Assembly (NCBI GenBank): GCA_902605365.1 | Contig: CACLCM010000004.1 | Location: forward strand, 1,471-65,470 | Length of the DNA: 64,000 nt | From: an uncultured Candidatus Poseidoniales archaeon | Lineage (GTDB): Archaea; Thermoplasmatota; Poseidoniia; Poseidoniales; Poseidoniaceae | Reading direction: 5' to 3' | In this document: in pieces, positions 51,963 through 64,000 of the stretch | Layout: each line of letters opens with the position of its first letter | Numbering within the stretch: the first letter of the stretch is position 1 | Program-made: the position numbers and the translations under genes | Notes under the pieces: generated by a model | Told to the model about the DNA's origin: nothing | Databases searched by the model: none | Seen by the model: only the letters and a program-made list of their open reading frames with translations

Positions 51963-54900
51963 ATGCGAGCAATAGCACTTGTTGGCCTACTGGTTTTATC
52001 TTCATTTGGTTCTGTCGCTGCTTGGCAACCCCAAAGCGTAGACGGAGAGACTATTGGACTTCGTAATGGAGACGTAGAATCCATTCCAATTCAGCAATTC
52101 CCAGATGTATCACACTCTGGTTTTTGGATGCTGACCCATGAATATCCCGTTCCTAGCGAATGGGTGCATGAACTTGCAGCAGCAGGTATTGAGTGCTGGT
52201 CATTTCTACCATCCTCTGCTTTCCATTGCGAATTGAATGGACATACCACATCTGAGTTGGCTAAACTTGATGTCAATGGAATGATCGAAATGCCGCCTTC
52301 TGCAAAACTACATCCTGACCTAATGCCATCTCTGAAGGGAGAAATGGAATCTTGGTTCATCGCTAAAGGTATAGGAGTTGTAAGTGTGGTTTTGTCAGGA
52401 GATGAATTACCTGAGGGAATCGAAGATAGAAGTGATGTTGAAGTAATGTCACATAGCTGGAGATGGGCCACTGTTGAAGTTAGAATTAGTGGAGTAGAAT
52501 GGCTGATTCAGCAATCAGAGGTTGAGTGGATTGAACCTCAGTTCGAAAAGGTTCTATTGAACGATGAGGCTGATGCTGTAATCGGTGCAACCGTATTACA
52601 GGACGCTACTCAAATGGCTGGAATTAACTCTGCTTGGAATGCATTAGATGGTACAGGAATTATCGTCACGGTTTCAGATACGGGATTGGATAATGGCGTA
52701 AACAACACCAATATGCACCCTGATTTCAGAGACCACATAGTAGGCATTCACTCCTACGGCATCCCATCAGGAATGCAAAGTTATGCTAACGCACCTTACG
52801 AAGATGGTGCTTCTGACCTCGATAGTGGACACGGAACTCACGTAGCAGGCTCTGTACTAGGGGATGGAACTCAATCCTCAGGTTCTATCAAAGGAATTGC
52901 TCCTGAAGCAAGACTCTACATGCAGGCTACTGAAGTGTGGACCGATTGGACTACATCTGTAGAAAACACATACGGATATACTGATGATTACACTTTGATG
53001 GGCATACCAGACGACTTGAGCGACATGTTTGATGATGCTGTTGCAAATGGCTCTAACATACATACCAATTCGTGGGGATCATCAGTTGCTGGACAATATA
53101 CCTCCAATTCCATGCAGGCCGACCATTCGGCAAGAAATCACACAGGATTGTTGATATTATTCGCAGCAGCGAATGAAGGAACAGATGGTAACAGTGACGG
53201 AGAAGTAGACCTAGATAGCATGGGTGCGCCTGCTACTGCGAAGAACGTTCTAACAGTAGGTGCATCTGAAAATAACCGAGGTTCAACGATTTCCTCTCAG
53301 TGGGGACAATGGTGGCCTGGAGACTATCCAGCTGACCCGATTAATTCCGATAAGATAGCAAATAATACCGAGGGATTGGCCGCATTCTCAAGCCGTGGAC
53401 CTGTCGATGACGGGAGAGTGAAACCTGATGTTTCAGCGCCTGGAACATTCATTCTTTCAGCAAAGAGTCGCTCAACAACACAAACAGGATGGGGCGCTCA
53501 CTCAAATTCAGATTACACCTTCATGGGAGGAACAAGTATGGCGACTCCTATTACTGCAGGAGCATCAGCATTATTGTATCAGCATCTAATTGACAATTTA
53601 GCTCACACAACCCCTACTAGCGCTCTAGTCAAAGGGATAATTGCAGCTAGCGCTCACGACATGACTGGCCAGTACGGTTCATCTAGCAATGGCGCTGGTG
53701 AAACTGCACCTAACAACCACGAAGGATGGGGTCTTCTAGACCTTGACCGTGCAGTAAATACCACATGGGTAGATGATGAATCGGTTAGCACAGGAGATTC
53801 TAGAAGTTGGAAATTTACAGTCCCAGCAAGCGCTCCTGACCTCAAGGTAATGGTGTCATGGACTGACCCAGCAAGTACACCTGCAGCATCGGTAAATTTG
53901 GTTAATGATATCGACTTTGCAGTTAAGGACCCTAATGGTAACTGGGTAGAATATGGAAACAATCTCGACAACCTGATTGGTACAACTATCTCATCTCCGA
54001 TGTCTGGACAGTGGGAGGTTCACGTAAATGGAACCAATATCCCTACTGGGCCACAATCCTTTGCAATGGTTATCGATGCCCCTTATTCTATGATAAATAT
54101 GTCAGCGGATGCCGATGGTGACGGAATAATTGACACTCTTGATGACTGTCCAAATACAGCAGGAACATCTACTCAAGACCAAACTGGGTGCCCGGATGGC
54201 GATGGAGATGGATGGTCCAATGTTGGAGATGATTTCCCTAACGAAGGAACGCAATGGGCCGATTCTGATAGTGATGGATTTGGTGATAACCCAGGCGGAG
54301 TCAATCCTGACTCCTGCACATCTGTAGCAGGTACATCCAGTGGCGATAGATATGGCTGCCCAGATTCTGATTCCGATTCATGGTCAGACCCTGATGGTGG
54401 ATGGACTGCAATTCAAGGAGCTGATGCTTGCGATTCGGTCTGGGGTAATTCCTCCCTTGACAGAAATGGTTGTCCTGACGCTGATGGCGATAGCCAATCT
54501 GACCTAAATGACATTCTTGTTAACGACCCAAGCCAATGGCTGGATACTGACGGAGATACCTATTATGACAATGCTAATCCCGCTACAAATTGGGATGACT
54601 GCCCGGCAATTTGGGGTAATTCAACTATTGATTTACAAGGATGTCTTGACAGTGATGGAGATGGCATGTCTGATGCTAATGATCAATGGCCAAACGACCC
54701 TACAAAGTCTAATGATACCGATGGTGACGGCGTTGCAGATAGTGAAGATGATTGTCCAAACTTTGCAGGTAACTCCACTTGGATTTTAGTTGGATGCCTA
54801 GATGCAGATGGCGATGGTAGAACTGTTGACCACGATGCTTTTCCTGCAGATCAAACTCAGTGGAACGACACAGATGGTGACGGATTTGGGGATGAGCCAA

Positions 54901-56657
54901 CTGGTAACCTAGCTGACGATTGCGTAAACACAGCAGGCGACTCTTGGCAAAATGGAACTCTTGGTTGCCCTGATTTAGATGGTGATGGTTGGGCAGATTC
55001 AGAAGATAGTTTCACCAATGATTCTACCCAATGGCAGGATGATGATGGTGACGGATTTGGAGACAATATAATTGGCAATAATCACGATTCATGTATAGGA
55101 ATCTGGGGTAATTCAACAAAAGGTGGAATGCTAGGTTGTATCGATACTGATGGCGATGGATGGGCAGACATGATTGATGCACTGCCAAATGACCCTACTC
55201 AACATGAAGACCAAGATGGTGATGGATACGGAGACAATATTACAGGTAACAATGCCGATGATTGTCCACTAACATTTGGAAATTCAACAATCGACCGACT
55301 TGGATGTGTGGATACCGATGGCGATGGCCACTCCGACCTAAACGATGACTTCCCACTAGACCCTACTAGGTATCTCGATACGGATGGAGACGGATATGAT
55401 GATGTCGAAGACGACTGTTTTGAGACTGCAGGAACTTCAACCAACGGCTCCTTAGGATGCTTTGATGCAGACCAGGACTCATGGGCAGATTTAGATGATT
55501 CATTCCCACTAGACAACACACAGTGGAACGATACAGATAATGATGGATTTGGAGATAATGCAGAAGGAACCACACCGGATTCATGCCCCTCACAATTTGG
55601 AAACAGTAGTTCAGATACGTTCGGTTGTACAGATACTGATGGCGATTCATGGTCAGATTCAGGAGATGCATTCCCTTCAGACATTAGCGAGTGGTCAGAT
55701 AATGACTCTGATGGATTTGGAGATAATATCGATAATTGCCCGCTAGTTGCTGGAAATTCCACCAATGGTAGCATTGGATGTTTGGATGACGATGGGGACT
55801 CATGGTCTAACAATAACGACTTCCTTCCATCAGACCCGACCCAGTGGCTAGATACTGATGGTGACGGCTATGGTGACAATCCGACTGGTACTGACGGAGA
55901 CCAATGCCCATCTGCAGCAGGAACTGCTACTCTGGACTTACTGGGTTGTCCAGACAATGACTTGGACGGTTGGTCAAACATTGGAGATGCTTTCCCAGAG
56001 CACAGAACACAATACGAAGACAATGATGGTGATGGATACGGAGACAATAATTCACCCGGAGCTGAATTACCAGACCACTGGCCTGAAGACCCTTCACGTA
56101 ACACTGCGGAAGTATTGCTATCTTGCGACCCTAATGAATTCGAAAGAGATCTAGCGAGTGATTCAAGCCTTACATTTACTTGTACGATAACAAATATGAT
56201 CCAAAATGATCTAACCGTGGTAGTTGAATGGAAATTGATGAATGCAATAGATGCTGGGGTCAGAAGACACATTCTGGTTATACCTGGAAATGAAAATGAT
56301 ACTGTAGCATTCTCTGGACAAGTTGTAGAGAAAGGGGACATCTCATCAGTAATTGATGCCAGCGAACCGGGTGCTGAGTCTTCTATGGCTATCACTGTAA
56401 TTTCAATAAAAGCAATCAATTCTGATGACGGTGATACATTCGATGACCTGCTAGAGCAAACTAAGGATGTTCCACATATTCAAGAAATAATAGCCGTAAG
56501 TCTTGCACTAATTCTAGGATTATTCCTTGTGATAAACGGTAGAAGAAACTCAAAACGTAGAAAATCAGAGCGTTTGGCGCACATAAACAGATTGAGAGCG
56601 GACAGATTCGTAATTGACGAAAACAGTATGATTGGCGGACCTCCTCCTAGATTCTAA
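51963..56657 (+). CDS. Membrane-anchored S8 subtilase with long TSP3-like Ca-binding repeat stalk
   Basis: Catalytic triad DTGLD, HGTHVAG, GTSMATP; many DxDGDG/GCPD repeats; C-terminal TM. Confidence 0.93.
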   Translation: MRAIALVGLLVLSSFGSVAAWQPQSVDGETIGLRNGDVESIPIQQFPDVSHSGFWMLTHEYPVPSEWVHELAAAGIECWSFLPSSAFHCELNGHTTSELAKLDVNGMIEMPPSAKLHPDLMPSLKGEMESWFIAKGIGVVSVVLSGDELPEGIEDRSDVEVMSHSWRWATVEVRISGVEWLIQQSEVEWIEPQFEKVLLNDEADAVIGATVLQDATQMAGINSAWNALDGTGIIVTVSDTGLDNGVNNTNMHPDFRDHIVGIHSYGIPSGMQSYANAPYEDGASDLDSGHGTHVAGSVLGDGTQSSGSIKGIAPEARLYMQATEVWTDWTTSVENTYGYTDDYTLMGIPDDLSDMFDDAVANGSNIHTNSWGSSVAGQYTSNSMQADHSARNHTGLLILFAAANEGTDGNSDGEVDLDSMGAPATAKNVLTVGASENNRGSTISSQWGQWWPGDYPADPINSDKIANNTEGLAAFSSRGPVDDGRVKPDVSAPGTFILSAKSRSTTQTGWGAHSNSDYTFMGGTSMATPITAGASALLYQHLIDNLAHTTPTSALVKGIIAASAHDMTGQYGSSSNGAGETAPNNHEGWGLLDLDRAVNTTWVDDESVSTGDSRSWKFTVPASAPDLKVMVSWTDPASTPAASVNLVNDIDFAVKDPNGNWVEYGNNLDNLIGTTISSPMSGQWEVHVNGTNIPTGPQSFAMVIDAPYSMINMSADADGDGIIDTLDDCPNTAGTSTQDQTGCPDGDGDGWSNVGDDFPNEGTQWADSDSDGFGDNPGGVNPDSCTSVAGTSSGDRYGCPDSDSDSWSDPDGGWTAIQGADACDSVWGNSSLDRNGCPDADGDSQSDLNDILVNDPSQWLDTDGDTYYDNANPATNWDDCPAIWGNSTIDLQGCLDSDGDGMSDANDQWPNDPTKSNDTDGDGVADSEDDCPNFAGNSTWILVGCLDADGDGRTVDHDAFPADQTQWNDTDGDGFGDEPTGNLADDCVNTAGDSWQNGTLGCPDLDGDGWADSEDSFTNDSTQWQDDDGDGFGDNIIGNNHDSCIGIWGNSTKGGMLGCIDTDGDGWADMIDALPNDPTQHEDQDGDGYGDNITGNNADDCPLTFGNSTIDRLGCVDTDGDGHSDLNDDFPLDPTRYLDTDGDGYDDVEDDCFETAGTSTNGSLGCFDADQDSWADLDDSFPLDNTQWNDTDNDGFGDNAEGTTPDSCPSQFGNSSSDTFGCTDTDGDSWSDSGDAFPSDISEWSDNDSDGFGDNIDNCPLVAGNSTNGSIGCLDDDGDSWSNNNDFLPSDPTQWLDTDGDGYGDNPTGTDGDQCPSAAGTATLDLLGCPDNDLDGWSNIGDAFPEHRTQYEDNDGDGYGDNNSPGAELPDHWPEDPSRNTAEVLLSCDPNEFERDLASDSSLTFTCTITNMIQNDLTVVVEWKLMNAIDAGVRRHILVIPGNENDTVAFSGQVVEKGDISSVIDASEPGAESSMAITVISIKAINSDDGDTFDDLLEQTKDVPHIQEIIAVSLALILGLFLVINGRRNSKRRKSERLAHINRLRADRFVIDENSMIGGPPPRF

Positions 56658-56854: not shown

Positions 56855-58259
56855 ATGAACCGTCATCTAACGGCGTTAATCCTAACCGGATTATTCGTGA
56901 TTGCTCCATTATCGGGATGCTTTGGCGAGGAGGAACAGAAATCGATAGACCCTGCAGGATCGTTACAAATCGATTTCGTTAATCCCGAAGATGCAGTTTT
57001 GCGAGCAGGTGAGTTTCATGATTTCACTCTGGTGGGTGAAGGTAATTCGATAGCAACTCAGCCAGATGTTTTGATATTCATTAACGGGACTTATGTGAAA
57101 AGTCACATGGTTGTGGTTGAAGATAATACAGTATATGGTCAACTATTAACAACGCCTTACACCGATGAAGTTAGCATAGCATTCATGAGTAGTGATGGAC
57201 AAACTGAAGCACTAAGCGTTTCGATTACAAATGGAACTCCAATCGTTAACGGCGAAGAATGGTTTAGAAAAATTGACTTCATCACAAGTACTTGTACTGA
57301 CACAACGAAATGTGGAGGATACATAAATCGCTGGATGGGCGCTGGGAATCTAGCCTTTGAGCGTGCAGCTGAATATTTCAAAGGTCATTTCGAAGGGCTT
57401 GGATATGAAACTCACTTGCTTAGAGTCACAGACCATGGTAACCTAGCACAACCAGAAAGCCTCAATGTCATCGCTTGGAAGCAAGGCCGCAACGATAACT
57501 GCGTTCAAGGAATGGGTGGACACATGGACATCGCACCACCAGGTGGGCCTCCAGGAGGAGGAACTTACGAAGGAGCTTATGACAACACGGCAGGTACTGT
57601 TGCGATGATGTTGTATGCCCGTGCTTTCGCAGACTTAACTTTCGAATGTGACACATTCCTGGCACTATGGTCCAGTGAAGAAGAAGGACTACGCGGTTCT
57701 AACGCCTTTGCTAACAACAACTGTGACTATTGTTTGCCTCAAGACAAAGAACTTGAGTTCTACATTAACATGGACATGATGGGAATGTCTTGGCCTGCAG
57801 TCAAATCAAACGGCGATCCTTTCCCTTATCATGCATGGTCAGGACCTGATGCAGACCCAGAAGTACAGGATGTTGCAATTACAACCGTTCTGGATGACGT
57901 ACATTTCAACATTTTAAAAGCTCCAAGAGACCTCAGAATTGAAGGCTCTTATGGAGCAGGTTGTGACCAGCATTGGGATGACCATTACAACCTCGTAATG
58001 GATGTTCATGAAGACACATTTGGACGCTCAGACCATGTAACATTCCGTGAGTTGGGGGGCACAAACCATTTTCCATCTAGGCGCATATGATGAGGATTAT
58101 GATGCATACCACTCCCCCTCAGATACTCTAGATAACATGGTTGCAGAAGTAGGTGGCCAGGAAGAGTTGGAGAAGAGCATGGAGTTCGTAATGTGGGCGG
58201 CAATGCTTGAATTCATCATAGCCGACCAAACCCCTGAGATTAGGAACTTGAACGCTTGA
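56855..58259 (+). pseudogene. M28 metallopeptidase lipoprotein split by a +1 frameshift (or a sequencing error)
   Basis: Lipobox LSGC, GHMD, GAYDN, SEEEG, INMDM, SDH. The YHSPSDT tail is in another frame after G6 at 58054-58059. Confidence 0.8.
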
Positions 58260-58973: not shown

Positions 58974-59663
58974 TCACACATTGTTCCTGGTAGTATTACA
59001 ACCAACACCCCAAGACTCACCAGACTGCATAGCAATTCTTGTTTGTTGCAACAAATCATCTTCAGCGCTTGCAGGGTCATCTCCTGCATTTCTCCATGAA
59101 ACAGAAACCATCTGGTCCTCATGAATAAATGATTCAACTTGGTAATTCTCAAGAATAATATCTCTAGGATTGAGATTCATCCCCCTCCTCTCTGCTTTTT
59201 GCACGGCCTCTTTGGCCGTCCATATTCGAATTGCTTGGTCGGGATTTGATTTCAACCAATCTAATTCCTCACCCTTAGCAATCATATCAAATGCATTTTC
59301 TTGAATGCCTCTATCCTTGGGCTCAGCATCTATTCCAATCCAGAACCCTGGCTCGATTACAGCGCATACAGCCCATTCACCTGAATGGCCGATACTTATT
59401 CCGGGCAAAGGAGTATTTCTCCAAATTCCGTCTAACCATGAAAGGTATGGAGCTCTCTCATCAGTGCGTAAGACCTCTATTGAATCAAGGGGAATTCCCC
59501 ATTCATTCAAGCATTCTTCTAGAAGAAGCCTTCCTGAATTGTGGTCTGCGATTCTTTTCGTATTAGCACGGGGTATTTCATCTGCAAGAGAACTAATGCA
59601 ATTCTCAATACGCCTACGAGCGATTAGCATTCGTGGACCCGAAACAGGATCCATCTTTTCCAT
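58974..59663 (-). CDS. Sfp-type 4'-phosphopantetheinyl transferase
   Basis: GRLLL, APYL, ISIGHS, IGIDAE, WTAKEAVQK. SD GAGGTGA lies in the last codons of the PKS gene. Confidence 0.9.
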   Translation of the reverse strand: MEKMDPVSGPRMLIARRRIENCISSLADEIPRANTKRIADHNSGRLLLEECLNEWGIPLDSIEVLRTDERAPYLSWLDGIWRNTPLPGISIGHSGEWAVCAVIEPGFWIGIDAEPKDRGIQENAFDMIAKGEELDWLKSNPDQAIRIWTAKEAVQKAERRGMNLNPRDIILENYQVESFIHEDQMVSVSWRNAGDDPASAEDDLLQQTRIAMQSGESWGVGCNTTRNNV

Positions 59664-59667
59664 ACAA

Positions 59668-62600
59668 TCACCTCTCGAGTGTGAACCTTTGGTCTTCAGG
59701 AACTTGCCCCATAGCCTTGAGTCTCAATCCTTTGAGCGATAATACCGGAGCATCATCATCACCAACGATTACGACATCGTGAACAGTTACACCCGCATCT
59801 TCTGAAGCGACCTTAACTGAACGCATTCGAAGTCTTTCGTTAGATTCAGGAACTCGTAACATTGTAGTCCACTCGATTCCTATTGGCAAACTGGAGAAAC
59901 CATCGCTCTCCATAGCGGCTAAGCCTGCGTTTTGGAATCCTGCTTCTATCAGCATAGGTAATGCATCTAGTAGTATTTCTTCGCCTTCACTTTCCAAAGC
60001 AAATTGGTCGGTTGCTGGGAGTTGATGTCTCATCAGTGCGATTCCATCAACGCCATTGTCAATTCCGCGAAGAACACCTCCGTGTGATTGGAATCTTGGA
60101 CCATGGAAATATCTGAGGTAGATGAAACTCGAGTGATGCAATAATTCGCCATCAGCAGGAGTTCCAATCGTAGGTAATGCATCAACCTCATTCTGAAGGA
60201 ATGGAAGTAGATCATCACTTGAAGTAACCAATCTGACCTTGGCTTCATGATGAAGTCGTGGCTCACCAAAGATTTCTCCTTTAGAATTGACCAAATCAGA
60301 AACTAAACGGCAACTCACCCAACTTAAATCACCATCTTTTCTTTCTAACTTGGCTTCTACTCGAACTGTCATTGAGCCTTTCATTATCTTAATCGGCAAG
60401 CCAAATGTTACGTCTTCAAATCCAGCAATACAATGTTCTGGTAATAGCAACAGAGAGTTCTCTGCAAACATTTCCATGGCCATTACTCCTGGATGATATG
60501 GCACACCATCGATTGCATGGTCGACCAAGAACGGATGGTCTTGGGTCGAAAGTGTGCATTGTGAGACCAAGGCTTTTCCAACATCAAGAGAAATTAATTT
60601 GTCAATTAGAGGGAAACGACGAGGGTCAGCAATAGATGCCGCCATCTCTGCTGGTAATTTCAATGGAGCTTCTCTGAAAGAGTCAAACCTGTCCATTAGA
60701 CCTAATGACCCACATCCAAGTACTCTCCTCTTCCCACCTGCAAGAGCCTCACCAACAAATATCTCAACCCCCTTCTCTACTGCTAATGTTTCGATTCCTG
60801 CAGATTCGAATACCGCTTCAATTGAACCTCTTGTGGCCATACCAACATCTCTCCAACCTGTCCACCCAATTGCGACTGCTCGGCAATCCCCACTTGCGGT
60901 CAGTCGAGCCATCTCTGCATCTAGAATTGAATTGGCAGCAGCATAATCTGTCTGACCACCATTTCCAAAGCGTCCAGCAACGCTTGTGAATGCACATGCA
61001 AATCGTAAATCGTCTCCAACTGCAGAGACAAGTGCTTTCCAGCCATCTACTTTCACACGCACAATCAAATCGAAAGTTTTCCATTCTTTGTCCGCAACTA
61101 ATTTTGATTCTTCCAGTCCTGCGCCATGGACGATTCCTGTGACGCTCCTTCCACCTACTGCTGCAATTATTGCATCAGAGTCAGTTACGTCTGCAGAATG
61201 GTACTCGGCATTGTTACCGCCTGACTCTATCACGCTGATAGTACGATAAATGTCCATGCTCCTAGTCAATTTAGTCCAGGCATTATTCCATTCTACCATC
61301 GTTATCTTGCCACTTTCCGATTCAGATATCATTGACTCACGAAGTTCCATCTTTCTAGTGTTGAGTTGCTCATCACTCCAATCAAGCCAAGTCGAAGTTT
61401 CTTCCTCAAGTTTACTTCTTCCAAGCAACAAGAAGGTTGCACCTGCTCCTTGGCTGGCGTTTGATACTCCGATTATCGAAGCGGCTGTAACACCAGAACC
61501 GCCTCCACTGACAATCCAAATATCATCCGATTCTAGAGATTTCACTTCATCAACAATATCTTCAGCAAAGCAAACTAATGTCCATCTTCTACCGTCTCTA
61601 TCGATTCCAACTTCAACGTCGCCACCAGAACTGAACATATCATTCTCGATTAATTCAGCTGCCGCTTCAGCATCAATAATCAATTCAGGGTGTAAGTCTA
61701 GGGCACGGCATCTGAGGTTTTCACGCTCAAACGCATATGATTTGGTCACACCACTGGCTGCACAGGCAAGTGAGTTGAATCTCTCTCCACGGTTTCCATG
61801 CCTTCCATCCATAGCGGTAACGCTTCCAATGATACCTGATGAAATCACTGCTAATTGTGAATCTAATCCTTTGAGTAATCCAAACCAGGATTGTGCTGCA
61901 AGTGTTACTTGGTTTGAAGGACCTTTAGATTCCCATGAACTTCCAGTAAGAGATAGTGGTGCTAAGTGAATGACTCCGGCAACTCCGGTTATTCTGGAAC
62001 ATATTTCTGAAATTTGTTCTTCGCTACTAGGGTCTGCTCTGTAAGTATGACCAGACAATTCTTCTTGCTCGGTTACCGACTTAGCACCGAACTCGAAGCC
62101 GATTTTAGCAATCGAGAGACCTTTTTCGCTTAGTCTGAGAGCTAATGCATCTGCAACTCCCCAACTATCTTGAGTGAGAACAATGGTTCCACCAATTGGC
62201 AATCCTTCTGCAACTGCGGGACAGGGCTCGACTTCAACCTGCCATCGCCTAGTCGTTGAACTTGCATGAGTTGGTGTGGAAGGTGTTGAAACGGGTGCTA
62301 CTTCGCTAACTGGTTCCGGTTCAGGAGTTGGTACTGGTTCAGAAGAACCCCCTCCTGTCATTTTCTGAATATATGCTACGAAATGATTCAGTGTAGGATG
62401 GTCTGAAAGTACGAAGTCCTCATCTACAGGTAATGAGAATATTTCTCTCACATCACCCATAATTTCAGCCTGTTTGACAGTATCAATTCCAAGTTCTCCC
62501 TCGAGGTCTTGGTCCATCTCGATAAAATCTTCAGGATAACCAGTATGTTTCACGACAACTCCAATCAACTTAGGCTGAATATCTGATGAGCCAACAGATT

Positions 62601-64000
62601 CTACCGGCTTTGCAATTATCGCCGGCTCTGGATTTACGGCTACTTCCAAAGGTTTGCTTACTTCTGTTTCAACTACTGGAGTTGGTGCAGTAGGAGTTGG
62701 ATTGCTTCCACCTTTCATTTTCTGAATATAGCCAATCATATGATTGAGAGTTGGATAATCTGACAATACGAAATCTTCGTCTACAGGCAACCCAAATTTA
62801 GTACGGATATCCGCCATTATTTCTGCTTGCTTGACCGTATCGATTCCGAGTTCACCCTCTAGGTCTTGGTCAAGTTCAACAAAGTCTGCAGGATAACCTG
62901 TGTGCTTTACAACAACCTCGATTACCACAGCGTTTAGATCTCCAGATATATTCTGTTGCGGGACTTTATCTTCGACTACTACCGGCTCTGGAGCGTCAAC
63001 AACTACCGGCTCTGGAGTAACAACTGCAATTGCAGGAGCTGCAACTGTTGTGGTGTTCTTCGGAACTGCATATTCCTCACCTTGGATTCCTCCATGTAGA
63101 TTATTTTCTCCATCCACATATGCAACTAATTTGTTTTGAAGAATACGTAATTCGATATTAGGAGTACCTGCCAGCGACTGGTTCCAAGTCAGTAATTTTT
63201 GGCGATTAATCCGGTCGCCAGAAAATTCACACTTTCTAACTAATGACAATCCAATTTGGCTACCAAACCCTGCTGCAAAGCGCATTCCGTACCTTAGTTC
63301 TGGATATGACCCTCCCTTGGATAAGTTCAGATTACCCAATTCCGGGTCTGCTTCTTTGTGATTAGCAATCGGAGGAATTTTCCCAGTCATTAGACCGTAG
63401 AACATTGAAGCACTTTCAATTCCAACACCCATTGGGTGTCCGGTGAAACCTTTGGTATTGGCGATAACTATCGAATCTGTACTCGCTCCAAACGTATCCC
63501 TCAGTGCCTTAACTTCGGCTTGTGCCGAGCCTCCTCTTGCAGGAGTGAAAGTTTCATGGGAAAAGAACACTGTTTCTGGAGCAATCTTGTGACGGTCAAG
63601 CCCCCACCTAGTTTCCATCTCTCCGATGAAACTGTCTACAGTGGAAGCCACGTGTTCCACGTCTAATCTAGTACCATGGAATGCTGAGTTTGCAATTTTA
63701 GTTCCGAGTAATTCAGCCATTGGCTGAACTCCTCTAGCATCTGATTGAGATTTCCTTTCTACAACGAATGCCGCTGCACCCATACCTAGAATCAAGCCGT
63801 TTCGACGTTTGTCGAAGGGCAGTGCTGTTTCTTCGATGACATTGCTAGTGGCTGCTGCGCCACTAGAAGCGAATCCTGAGCCAATCCATTCCCACATGTC
63901 ATCTCCAGTGACATCATCTGCAGAGATTATTACTACACGGTCACAACGGTCTGTAGCCAGCCAATCCTCGGCCACACCAAATGCTGCTGTTGCAGAAGCA
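59668..64000 (-). CDS. Multidomain type I PKS/FAS-like protein (KS-ACP-ACP-KR-DH), 5' end outside window
   Basis: Frame open to the edge (ASATAAFG). KS: PFDKRRNG..GMG, HETFT, NTKGFTGH, AGFG. Two ACPs: DLEGELGIDTVKQAE. KR: GGGSGV, HGAG, QTDYAAAN. DH: HAIDGVPYHP, FHGPRFQ. Confidence 0.9.
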   Translation of the reverse strand, partial: ASATAAFGVAEDWLATDRCDRVVIISADDVTGDDMWEWIGSGFASSGAAATSNVIEETALPFDKRRNGLILGMGAAAFVVERKSQSDARGVQPMAELLGTKIANSAFHGTRLDVEHVASTVDSFIGEMETRWGLDRHKIAPETVFFSHETFTPARGGSAQAEVKALRDTFGASTDSIVIANTKGFTGHPMGVGIESASMFYGLMTGKIPPIANHKEADPELGNLNLSKGGSYPELRYGMRFAAGFGSQIGLSLVRKCEFSGDRINRQKLLTWNQSLAGTPNIELRILQNKLVAYVDGENNLHGGIQGEEYAVPKNTTTVAAPAIAVVTPEPVVVDAPEPVVVEDKVPQQNISGDLNAVVIEVVVKHTGYPADFVELDQDLEGELGIDTVKQAEIMADIRTKFGLPVDEDFVLSDYPTLNHMIGYIQKMKGGSNPTPTAPTPVVETEVSKPLEVAVNPEPAIIAKPVESVGSSDIQPKLIGVVVKHTGYPEDFIEMDQDLEGELGIDTVKQAEIMGDVREIFSLPVDEDFVLSDHPTLNHFVAYIQKMTGGGSSEPVPTPEPEPVSEVAPVSTPSTPTHASSTTRRWQVEVEPCPAVAEGLPIGGTIVLTQDSWGVADALALRLSEKGLSIAKIGFEFGAKSVTEQEELSGHTYRADPSSEEQISEICSRITGVAGVIHLAPLSLTGSSWESKGPSNQVTLAAQSWFGLLKGLDSQLAVISSGIIGSVTAMDGRHGNRGERFNSLACAASGVTKSYAFERENLRCRALDLHPELIIDAEAAAELIENDMFSSGGDVEVGIDRDGRRWTLVCFAEDIVDEVKSLESDDIWIVSGGGSGVTAASIIGVSNASQGAGATFLLLGRSKLEEETSTWLDWSDEQLNTRKMELRESMISESESGKITMVEWNNAWTKLTRSMDIYRTISVIESGGNNAEYHSADVTDSDAIIAAVGGRSVTGIVHGAGLEESKLVADKEWKTFDLIVRVKVDGWKALVSAVGDDLRFACAFTSVAGRFGNGGQTDYAAANSILDAEMARLTASGDCRAVAIGWTGWRDVGMATRGSIEAVFESAGIETLAVEKGVEIFVGEALAGGKRRVLGCGSLGLMDRFDSFREAPLKLPAEMAASIADPRRFPLIDKLISLDVGKALVSQCTLSTQDHPFLVDHAIDGVPYHPGVMAMEMFAENSLLLLPEHCIAGFEDVTFGLPIKIMKGSMTVRVEAKLERKDGDLSWVSCRLVSDLVNSKGEIFGEPRLHHEAKVRLVTSSDDLLPFLQNEVDALPTIGTPADGELLHHSSFIYLRYFHGPRFQSHGGVLRGIDNGVDGIALMRHQLPATDQFALESEGEEILLDALPMLIEAGFQNAGLAAMESDGFSSLPIGIEWTTMLRVPESNERLRMRSVKVASEDAGVTVHDVVIVGDDDAPVLSLKGLRLKAMGQVPEDQRFTLER

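What the first reader, a model, noticed from the sequence alone, without database searches (positions are those of the whole stretch)
62350..62945. Both carrier domains of an archaeal PKS have Thr instead of the pantetheine-accepting Ser
Seen: both tandem ACP-like domains read LEGELGIDTVKQAEIM. The Thr codons differ (ACG at 62836-62838, ACT at 62479-62481), so one base-call error cannot explain it, and the motif is kept while synonymous sites have diverged. Established: PPTases modify the Ser of the GxDS motif. Inference: either the adjacent PPTase modifies Thr, which would be non-canonical carrier chemistry with a dedicated enzyme, or these domains have a non-carrier role. I recall similar GIDTVKQ motifs in some bacterial PKS-like proteins, so this may be a wider unstudied family; I could not verify that.
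Basis: partly seen in the sequence, partly recalled or inferred. Interest (0 to 1): 0.88.

Follow-up and report, generated by a model that had tools for sequence, protein, structure and literature searches.

The report
Carrier domains using threonine, not serine
A fatty-acid/polyketide megasynthase of a marine archaeon, and its many bacterial relatives, has threonine where every known acyl carrier domain has the serine that holds the phosphopantetheine arm, and a dedicated transferase gene sits next to it, which points to an undescribed threonine-linked version of a textbook cofactor attachment.

Summary
Both ACP domains read LEGELGIDTVKQAEIM, with Thr (ACG, ACT) at the position that aligns to the phosphopantetheine-bearing Ser of solved ACPs and opens helix II in the model.

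It is not a local oddity:
- 449 of 449 ACP motifs in 120 archaeal and bacterial homologues carry Thr.
- All 80 GTDB loci found with a pattern that did not demand Thr carry it.

The gene is a 2765-aa KS-AT-KS-ACP2-KR-DH synthase, cut by the window end, set between a FabI-like reductase and an Sfp-type PPTase. It matches the "Type R secondary lipid synthase" catalogued in 2011, whose paper never mentions threonine.

A PPTase lies downstream in 53 of 59 bacterial loci with a full flank. In four 93-98% complete related archaeal genomes these ACPs are the only PP-binding hits and this PPTase the only PPTase. One archaeal genus nested among Thr lineages has Ser in the same motif.

Best reading: Thr is the attachment site, loaded by the in-cluster PPTase. 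This is inferred, not shown. Mass spectrometry would settle it.

The parts
59668..64000 (-). C-terminal 1443 codons of a 2765-aa megasynthase: KS1-AT-(archaea-only degenerate ACP-like linker)-KS2-ACP-ACP-KR-DH. The gene continues beyond the window end, to G000:C4:69435.
   Evidence: ORF listing; full ORF from the genome; Pfam and NCBIfam domains
63106..64000 (-). The part of the second ketosynthase (KS2) that lies in the window. Its Cys, two His and Lys are invariant in 43-44 of 44 family members, so it is an active-type KS rather than a chain-length factor.
62698..62958 (-). ACP domain 1. The acceptor-position Thr codon is ACG at 62836-62838.
62350..62601 (-). ACP domain 2. The acceptor-position Thr codon is ACT at 62479-62481.
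60847..61245 (-). Ketoreductase (KR) domain, residues 2241-2373 of the full protein.
   Evidence: Pfam PF08659
59698..60612 (-). PKS-type dehydratase (PKS_DH_N plus PS-DH), residues 2452-2756.
58974..59663 (-). Sfp-type 4'-phosphopantetheinyl transferase of 229 aa, starting 4 nt after the synthase stop codon. The residues that align with the ISHS, GIDxE and WxxKExxxK segments of Sfp are kept (S90, H93, D112, E114, W148, K151, E152, K156).
   Evidence: Pfam PF01648; conservation; alignment to Sfp 1qr0/4mrt; sole PPTase hit in the genome

Best explanation
The two domains are working acyl carrier domains of an iterative FAS/PUFA-synthase-like megasynthase. A FabI-like enoyl reductase is encoded just upstream and an Sfp-type PPTase just downstream. 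In this protein family the phosphopantetheine arm is attached to a threonine at the N-terminus of helix II instead of the canonical serine. The in-cluster PPTase transfers the arm from CoA onto that Thr hydroxyl as a phosphodiester, by the same chemistry as for Ser. The holo-ACPs then shuttle malonyl and acyl thioesters between KS1, KS2, AT, KR, DH and the trans-acting reductase. Shown here: the position of the Thr, its conservation, the gene linkage, and the absence of any other carrier or PPTase. Inferred: that the Thr is modified at all, and that the neighbouring PPTase does it.
For: 1. The Thr sits exactly at the canonical site, by sequence alignment to solved ACPs and in the model, where T41 opens helix II.
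2. Thr is invariant across a large family.
- 449 of 449 ACP motifs in the best 120 homologues. That search is word-biased, and the 18 other regex hits lie in non-ACP context.
- All 80 best GTDB loci from a pattern that stops before the acceptor residue: 274 motifs in 78 loci plus 2 loci read by hand.
- The loci span Chloroflexota, Acidobacteriota, Myxococcales, Actinomycetota, Elusimicrobiota, Gemmatimonadota, Leptospiraceae, Rhodothermales and Bacteroidetes.
- All four ACN codons are used.
3. An unbiased phmmer scan of 1.84 billion representatives gave 100 Thr-only proteins, 44 Ser-only, 6 without a motif hit and 0 mixed among the top 150. The Ser-type neighbours are PUFA-synthase-like ACPs.
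4. Natural Ser/Thr swaps occur in an otherwise unchanged motif.
- Genus g9 of the same archaeal family has GVDSVKQAE (TCN codons) in all 4 of its 4 genomes.
- g9 is nested among Thr archaea, with Thr outgroups, in a KS1+AT tree.
- Holding all Thr rows together is rejected: delta lnL 255, p-AU 2.6e-52.
5. A PPTase homologue lies downstream in 53 of 59 bacterial loci with a full flank, and in 60 of 62 cases on the same strand. It is also present in every archaeal locus fetched that reaches far enough.
6. In G000 and in five relatives (four of them 93-98% complete) the only PF00550 hits are these ACPs and the only PF01648 hit is this PPTase. The enzyme therefore has no other detectable substrate.
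7. The PPTase keeps the residues aligned to the ISHS, GIDxE and WxxKExxxK segments of Sfp. Their roles in metal binding and catalysis are recalled, not tested here.
8. A complex model of PPTase, CoA, Mg and ACP1 scored ipSAE 0.91 against a best control of 0.09. That mark was reached by 58 of 80 solved complexes and 2 of 110 mismatched pairs. The runs agree in at least 98% of contacts and the partner pLDDT is at least 86. The interface includes ACP residues 40-42 and PPTase E114, W148 and E152. Sfp-PCP and AcpS-ACP complexes are solved, so this pass may reflect likeness to them.
Against: - No experiment or proteomic datum shows a phosphopantetheinyl-threonine in this or any protein. None turned up in five full-text searches aimed at the question.
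- As I recall, not from any call, the Ser36-to-Thr mutant of E. coli ACP is not modified by AcpS. Thr is therefore not a generally accepted acceptor.
- The partner PPTases show no obvious Thr-specific active-site change relative to Sfp, so nothing in the sequence explains a changed specificity.
- Tandem ACPs can be homogenised by gene conversion, which weakens the '0 mixed proteins' argument. In the window itself, however, the two copies are saturated at synonymous sites.
- The Thr group in the AU test was named after the tree had been seen.
- G000 is only 60% complete, so the 'only carrier, only PPTase' argument rests on its relatives.
Confidence: 0.68

Rival explanations
1. The Thr domains are not phosphopantetheinylated. 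They are structural or docking domains (pseudo-ACPs), and intermediates travel on CoA or on an unrecognised carrier.
For: - The defining Ser is missing.
- A degenerate ACP-like insert does exist in the same archaeal proteins, between AT and KS2. This shows that ACP folds can lose carrier function here.
- From recall, not from a call: archaea generally lack ACP.
Against: - The motif around the Thr is more conserved than the rest of the domain across phyla.
- Copy number varies from 2 to 8, as for throughput-tuned PUFA-synthase ACPs.
- A catalytically intact PPTase is co-inherited and has no other detectable substrate in the archaeal genomes.
- Nested lineages swap Thr for the canonical Ser.
- The truly degenerate insert shows no such conservation.
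Confidence: 0.12
2. The domains are carriers and are phosphopantetheinylated, but Ser versus Thr is functionally neutral. Any Sfp-type PPTase would load either residue, so Thr is a frozen accident with no dedicated chemistry.
For: - Ser and Thr interchanged at least twice or three times in the family.
- The partner PPTases keep all the residues aligned to the conserved Sfp segments.
- The PPTase of the Ser-type genus g9 is a homologue found at the same position next to the synthase as the Thr-type ones.
Against: - Thr to Ser needs one base change (ACN to TCN or AGY). Even so, 331 of 339 acceptor codons in the loci in hand are Thr, and the 8 Ser codons all lie in one genus.
- None of the 144 top proteins that have a motif mixes the two residues.
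- In the window the two copies have diverged to saturation at synonymous sites while both keep Thr.
- The g9 PPTases differ from the consensus of 81 Thr-partner PPTases at H93, E132 and R167. R167 is listed in the modelled interface and H93 adjoins listed residue 94. This rests on one lineage only.
Confidence: 0.15
3. The arm or the acyl chain is attached elsewhere, for example at the invariant Thr of the TGYP turn, or as a direct O-acyl ester on the motif Thr without pantetheine.
For: TGYP and the Thr of YPTL are also invariant. No data exclude other sites.
Against: - TGYP also occurs in the archaea-only degenerate ACP-like insert between AT and KS2, which keeps no acceptor residue.
- From recall, not from a call: it is also shared with Ser-type PUFA-synthase ACPs, where the Ser is the site.
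- The modelled complex puts residues 40-42, not the TGYP turn, at the PPTase catalytic residues.
- From established knowledge: an ester directly on the protein would lack the roughly 20 Å reach needed to visit six active sites.
Confidence: 0.05

Closest known systems
Type R secondary lipid synthase cluster (Shulse & Allen 2011, PMC3098273; passages and section 8 read)
   Same: One pfaA-like gene described as KS-MAT-CLF-ACP(3-6)-KR, followed by a PPTase gene. It is spread over Acidobacteria, Elusimicrobia and Chloroflexi, with an acetyl-CoA carboxylase gene inserted in some clusters. This is the architecture and the taxa I find. The archaeal proteins group with these bacterial ones in the tree.
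   Different: - The paper lists no archaea and has no occurrence of the word 'threonine'.
- Its 'CLF' keeps Cys-His-His in 43-44 of 44 members examined here.
- The window protein has 2 ACPs and an archaea-only insert.
- It pairs with FabI rather than the acyl-CoA-dehydrogenase-like gene seen next to the bacterial clusters.
- The paper's supplementary PPTase alignment could not be seen.
PfaA of PUFA synthases (TIGR02813) and its tandem ACPs
   Same: The order KS-AT-ACPn-KR-DH, tandem ACPs and an Sfp-type PPTase in the cluster. The ACP flanks are alike. PUFA-type rows carry LGIDSIKRVEIL and were the Ser-type neighbours in the unbiased search.
   Different: - The TIGR02813 score is 871 bits, below the cut-off of 1010.
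- An extra KS2 lies between AT and the ACPs.
- The acceptor is Thr and the motif is DTVKQAE.
- PUFA-type rows form the outgroup in the tree.
Canonical acyl carrier proteins (Pfam PF00550), such as AcpM and the PigH ACPs
   Same: The helical-bundle fold, an HMM match above the cut-off and a GxD motif at the start of helix II.
   Different: The modified Ser is replaced by Thr in every copy.
Sfp-type (group II) PPTases
   Same: A PF01648 match. The ISHS, GIDxE and WxxKExxxK segments align with Sfp (1qr0/4mrt).
   Different: About 20% identity between the archaeal and the bacterial family members. The presumed acceptor is Thr. No Thr-specific residue could be named.

Membership tests
Acyl carrier protein / PP-binding (PF00550) | Sequence match to the family profile above its curated cut-off | tested here: met
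   55.1 bits for two stretches against a cut-off of 20.8; 36.6 bits in the genome scan
Acyl carrier protein / PP-binding (PF00550) | Helical-bundle fold with the acceptor at the N-terminus of helix II | tested here: met
   AF2 model with pLDDT 88.6 and helices at 4-20, 41-55 and 71-81. T41 is the first residue of helix II.
Acyl carrier protein / PP-binding (PF00550) | Serine in the GxDS motif as the phosphopantetheine attachment site | tested here: not met
   Thr in both copies, aligned to the Ser of 5y08 and 1klp
Acyl carrier protein / PP-binding (PF00550) | Covalent 4'-phosphopantetheine on the domain | not testable with these tools
   Needs mass spectrometry. Only indirect genomic evidence is available.
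Type R secondary lipid synthase (Shulse & Allen 2011) | A single pfaA-like gene with KS-MAT-(second KS-like domain)-tandem ACPs-KR | tested here: met
   Domains found by Pfam. The same order occurs in bacterial homologues. The window protein has 2 ACPs, against the 3-6 described.
Type R secondary lipid synthase (Shulse & Allen 2011) | PPTase gene directly downstream | tested here: met
   Window 58974-59663, 4 nt after the synthase stop codon. Present in 53 of 59 bacterial loci with a full flank.
Type R secondary lipid synthase (Shulse & Allen 2011) | Phylogenetic grouping with the named Type R organisms | tested here: inconclusive
   Groups at 99* with bacterial KS-AT-KS2 proteins from the same phyla. 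The paper's own reference sequences (Roseiflexus, Koribacter, Solibacter, E. minutum Pei191) were not in my set.
PfaA, omega-3 PUFA synthase (TIGR02813) | Score above the curated cut-off | tested here: not met
   871.2 bits against a cut-off of 1010.1
Sfp-type PPTase (PF01648) | Profile match, plus the conserved residues that align with Sfp's ISHS, GIDxE and WxxKExxxK segments | tested here: met
   43.9 bits against a cut-off of 25. D112, E114, W148, K151, E152 and K156 are invariant or nearly so in 30 and in 81 sequences. Alignment to Sfp.

The most novel reading that the evidence does not exclude
O-(4'-phosphopantetheinyl)-threonine is a real, undescribed protein modification that defines a whole class of carrier domains. 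The class covers several bacterial phyla and most Poseidoniaceae archaea. The Thr would be selected because it makes the carrier orthogonal: only the co-inherited PPTase can load it. Housekeeping AcpS-type enzymes could not load it, and possibly ACP phosphodiesterases could not strip it. This would insulate a secondary lipid synthase from primary fatty-acid metabolism.
Probability: 0.3. Interest if true: 0.9.

Novelty: new variant of a known kind. Interest (0 to 1): 0.8.

Why it matters
Attachment of phosphopantetheine to a serine is treated as universal for fatty-acid, polyketide and non-ribosomal peptide carriers. Annotation patterns and genome-mining tools are built on it.

- **New chemistry.** A large natural family with Thr at that site would be the first Thr-linked pantetheine arm if it is loaded.
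- **A new specificity problem.** It would pose a question about how PPTases choose their acceptor, and it might supply an orthogonal carrier/PPTase pair for engineering.
- **Archaeal lipids.** The archaeal case also bears on an open question. Poseidoniales are abundant marine archaea. This operon (reductase, megasynthase, PPTase) is their only detectable carrier-dependent acyl-chain machinery in the genomes searched. The motif occurs in 145 of 149 sampled genomes of the window's family.
- **Testability.** The claim can be tested with one co-expression experiment and intact-mass spectrometry.

Tried and rejected
**A hidden canonical ACP upstream.** The full ORF was recovered from the genome and scanned. 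The stretch between AT and KS2 looks ACP-like (TGYP ... LGMSD). It is present only in archaea, and its candidate Ser position varies (S, T, N, L, D) across 19 archaeal-clade rows. The bacterial members lack the insert. I rejected it as a carrier.

**PPTase fused to the synthase.** Four long ORFs with a C-terminal PPTase hit (L025, L041, L070, L072) turned out to be stop-to-stop frames of high-GC DNA. Their first Met comes late and they have no KS, AT, KR or DH similarity. I dropped this claim.

**A Thr-specific residue in the PPTase.** I compared 81 Thr-partner PPTases with 3 Ser-partner (g9) PPTases. The g9 enzymes differ at H93, E132 and R167. Sfp, which loads Ser, has His at the position aligned to H93, and g9 is a single lineage. 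This is a lead, not a determinant.

**Unusual divergence of the g9 PPTase.** The g9 PPTase is no more divergent than expected. Its synthase is also the most divergent in the family, and the PPTases of family f3 are as distant.

- No paper on a Thr-type carrier or on phosphopantetheinyl-threonine was found.
- No paper holds Poseidoniales together with 'acyl carrier protein' and 'fatty acid'. The two papers that hold Poseidoniales and 'polyketide synthase' were not about this gene. One was checked: the term stands only in its reference list. The other was seen only in the search listing.
- The preprint 10.1101/2025.01.28.635281 was checked by term search only and does not treat Thr.
It could bear on the PPTase comparison.

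Full report
**1. The observation**

On the minus strand the window encodes two tandem PP-binding domains that both read LEGELGIDTVKQAEIM. The Thr codons are ACG at 62836-62838 and ACT at 62479-62481. Pfam PP-binding matches both domains.

Several results show that this is neither an error nor a recent duplicate:
- phmmer against all PDB chains aligns the Thr with the phosphopantetheine-bearing Ser of the PigH ACPs (5y08) and of AcpM (1klp, 7bvc).
- An AlphaFold2 model of ACP1 (pLDDT 88.6) has helices at residues 4-20, 41-55 and 71-81. The Thr (residue 41) opens helix II.
- The two copies share 58 of 75 residues but only 161 of 225 bases. Synonymous sites are saturated (pS 0.82) and pN is 0.14. 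Nine of the 16 motif codons differ, all synonymously.

**2. The gene and its neighbours**

The ORF is cut by the window end. In the genome (G000, contig C4) it has 2765 aa.

The domain order is as follows:
- KS1, residues 23-480.
- AT, residues 629-958.
- A linker.
- KS2, about residues 1120-1620.
- ACP1 (Thr 1710) and ACP2 (Thr 1829).
- KR, residues 2241-2373.
- A PKS-type DH, residues 2452-2756.

KS2 keeps Cys, two His and Lys in 43-44 of 44 family members. It is therefore an active-type ketosynthase.

A FabI-like enoyl reductase ends 2 nt inside the synthase start codon. An Sfp-type PPTase of 229 aa starts 4 nt after the synthase stop codon. A TBP gene nearby and source annotations of homologues as Poseidoniales place the organism in that archaeal order.

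The upstream part holds no canonical GxDS carrier. The AT-KS2 linker contains an ACP-like remnant, but it occurs only in archaea and has no conserved acceptor residue.

**3. How widespread the Thr is**

*Word-indexed search.* A search with the ACP region found 3159 proteins at E no greater than 1e-3. In the best 120, from archaea and bacteria, all 449 ACP motifs read G[IV]DTVKQ[AV]E. The 18 other regex hits lie in unrelated sequence context. That search favours shared words, so I ran two less biased ones.

*GTDB species genomes.* A scan used the pattern D[LM]E[AG][DE]LG[IV]D, which ends before the acceptor residue.
- All of the best 80 loci are Thr-type: 274 motifs in 78 loci plus two loci read by hand.
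- They come from Chloroflexota, Acidobacteriota, Myxococcales, Actinomycetota (including a cultured Amycolatopsis), Elusimicrobiota, Gemmatimonadota, Leptospiraceae, Rhodothermales and Bacteroidetes.

*Unbiased phmmer scan.* ACP1 was searched against 1.84 billion cluster representatives.
- It gave 4599 hits at E no greater than 1e-3 and 2545 at 1e-10.
- Of the top 150, 100 are Thr-only, 44 Ser-only and 6 have no motif hit. None mixes Ser and Thr.
- The Ser-type neighbours are PUFA-synthase-like (LGIDSIKRVEIL), a KS-KS-AT family (DSIKKAQ), P0210 (same KS-AT-KS2 architecture, DSVKVAE) and P0203 (GVDSVKQAE).

**4. Ser and Thr swap within the family**

A degenerate DNA pattern allowing either residue was run on 301 genomes of the window's order, G000 included.
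- It matched 175 genomes: 145 of 149 in the window's family f1, 1 of 2 in f2 and 28 of 149 in f3.
- Of 476 matches, 150 were listed. Among those, Ser codons (TCN) occur only in genus g9, in all 4 of its genomes and in both ACPs.
- Five f3 genomes checked separately are all Thr, 10 motifs in total.
- In the loci fetched, archaeal acceptor codons are 57 ACN and 8 TCN. Bacterial ones are 274 ACN. All four Thr codons are used.

A KS1+AT tree of 55 rows, rooted on PUFA-type proteins, gave these results:
- The KS-AT-KS2 family is one clade (99*).
- The archaea are one clade (100*).
- g9 is nested among Thr-type archaea, with Thr-type outgroups P0121 and P0102.
- At least 3 Ser/Thr changes are needed, and starred branches force 2.

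Holding all Thr rows together costs 255 log-likelihood units (p-AU 2.6e-52). The group was defined after the tree had been seen. A residue that toggles between Ser and Thr while the surrounding motif stays fixed behaves like an acceptor hydroxyl, not like a dead site.

**5. The PPTase**

*Linkage.* A profile built from the window PPTase finds a homologue in 62 of the 80 bacterial loci.
- Among the 59 loci with a full 10-kb downstream flank, 53 have one.
- The 12 short-flank loci without a homologue have less than 2.2 kb downstream.
- 60 of the 62 homologues are on the same strand as the synthase.
- Every archaeal locus fetched that reaches far enough has one, including the Ser-type g9 loci.

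*No other substrate.* The only PF00550 matches are the synthase ACPs and the only PF01648 match is this PPTase. This holds in G000 and in five relatives: G003, G010, G012 and G002 at 93-98% completeness, and G258 at 82%. The searches did find hits in 11 and 10 of the 14 control genomes.

*Catalytic residues.* The enzyme keeps S90, H93, D112, E114, W148, K151, E152 and K156. These align with the ISHS, GIDxE and WxxKExxxK segments of Sfp.

*Complex model.* A model of PPTase, CoA, Mg and ACP1 gave the following:
- It scored ipSAE 0.91 against a best control of 0.09.
- That mark was reached by 58 of 80 solved complexes and 2 of 110 mismatched pairs.
- The runs agree in at least 98% of contacts and the partner pLDDT is at least 86.
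- The interface includes ACP residues 40-42 and PPTase E114, W148 and E152.
- The model supports binding but does not show it. Sfp-PCP and AcpS-ACP complexes are solved, so the pass may reflect likeness to them.

**6. What it most likely is**

The operon encodes a self-contained iterative acyl-chain synthase: two KS domains, AT, KR, DH, a trans-acting FabI and its own PPTase. Its carriers use Thr as the pantetheine attachment site.

- Shown: the position of the Thr, its conservation, the gene linkage, and the lack of alternative carriers or PPTases.
- Inferred: that the Thr is modified and that the neighbouring PPTase does it.

I put this at about 0.68. The rivals are:
- Unmodified pseudo-carriers (0.12).
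- Modification with Ser and Thr interchangeable and no dedicated chemistry (0.15).
- Attachment elsewhere (0.05).

Against neutrality, one base change would turn Thr into Ser. Yet 331 of 339 acceptor codons in hand are Thr, and no protein mixes the two residues. Against my reading, no adduct has been observed. As I recall, not from a call, E. coli AcpS does not accept a Ser36-to-Thr ACP. I also could not find a Thr-specific change in the PPTase.

**7. Comparison with what is known**

The cluster matches the 'Type R secondary lipid synthase' of Shulse & Allen 2011 (PMC3098273). They describe KS-MAT-CLF-ACP(3-6)-KR plus a downstream PPTase in Koribacter, Solibacter, Elusimicrobium and Roseiflexus, with an acetyl-CoA carboxylase gene inserted in some clusters and an unknown product (passages and section 8 read).

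I see the same gene order. Three bacterial loci were scanned:
- All three, from three phyla, have an acyl-CoA-dehydrogenase-like gene upstream.
- The acidobacterial locus also has an ETF gene and a multidomain ACC.

That paper has no occurrence of 'threonine' and lists no archaea. The window protein is not a PfaA by the NCBIfam cut-off: 871 bits against 1010.

Five full-text searches aimed at Thr-type carriers or phosphopantetheinyl-threonine found nothing relevant. Three searches aimed at Poseidoniales or Marine Group II synthases found nothing relevant either. The library misses most subscription journals, so 'not in print' holds only for what was searched.

**8. Verdict**

The gene-cluster type is known, but the Thr acceptor appears to be unreported. 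I classify the finding as a new variant of a known kind. It is of high interest to carrier-protein enzymology and can be tested directly by mass spectrometry.

Noticed in passing
window 63106-64000 and beyond (full protein residues about 1120-1620): The second KS-like domain, called a chain-length factor in the 2011 description of Type R clusters, keeps the Cys, both His and the Lys in 43-44 of 44 family members. The synthase therefore seems to have two active ketosynthases.
   Followed up: partly
L002:8070-8560 (-), outside the window; full protein residues about 960-1120: An archaea-only insert between AT and KS2 resembles an ACP (TGYP ... LG[ML][ST][DE]) but has no conserved acceptor residue. 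It looks like a degenerate carrier domain used as a linker. The bacterial homologues lack it.
   Followed up: yes
L084, L085, L086, L087 (genus g9 of the same archaeal family): Genus g9 has Ser (TCN) instead of Thr in the same motif. Its neighbouring PPTases replace the otherwise conserved His of the ISxxHSG segment, E132 and R167. This is a single lineage, so covariation is unproven.
   Followed up: partly
L005, L010, L016 (bacterial loci): All three bacterial clusters scanned carry an acyl-CoA-dehydrogenase-like gene of about 565 aa just upstream of the synthase. The acidobacterial locus L016 also has an ETF gene and a 1897-aa multidomain acetyl-CoA carboxylase between the synthase and the PPTase. 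The archaeal clusters instead have a FabI-like reductase.
   Followed up: partly
window 51963-56657 (+): A 1564-aa ORF with an N-terminal signal-like segment, a subtilisin-like region and a long run of Asp-rich repeats (DxDGDGxxD-like), ending in a hydrophobic anchor. It is probably a surface protease. It was judged by eye from the translation only.
   Followed up: no
window 56855-58090 (+): An M28-family peptidase with a lipoprotein-like N-terminus (Pfam PF04389, E 1e-16).
   Followed up: no
G000:C4:73722-79619 (-), outside the window: A 1965-aa ORF with no carrier motifs and a C-terminal hydrophobic segment. It is probably a giant surface protein, four genes upstream of the synthase operon.
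   Followed up: no
P0268: A 3350-aa KS-KS-AT-KS2-ACP3-KR-DH protein with a third motif variant, GIDTIKQAQ. It has Thr, but flanks like the Ser-type DSIKKAQ family. It branches first in the family tree, on a long branch.
   Followed up: no
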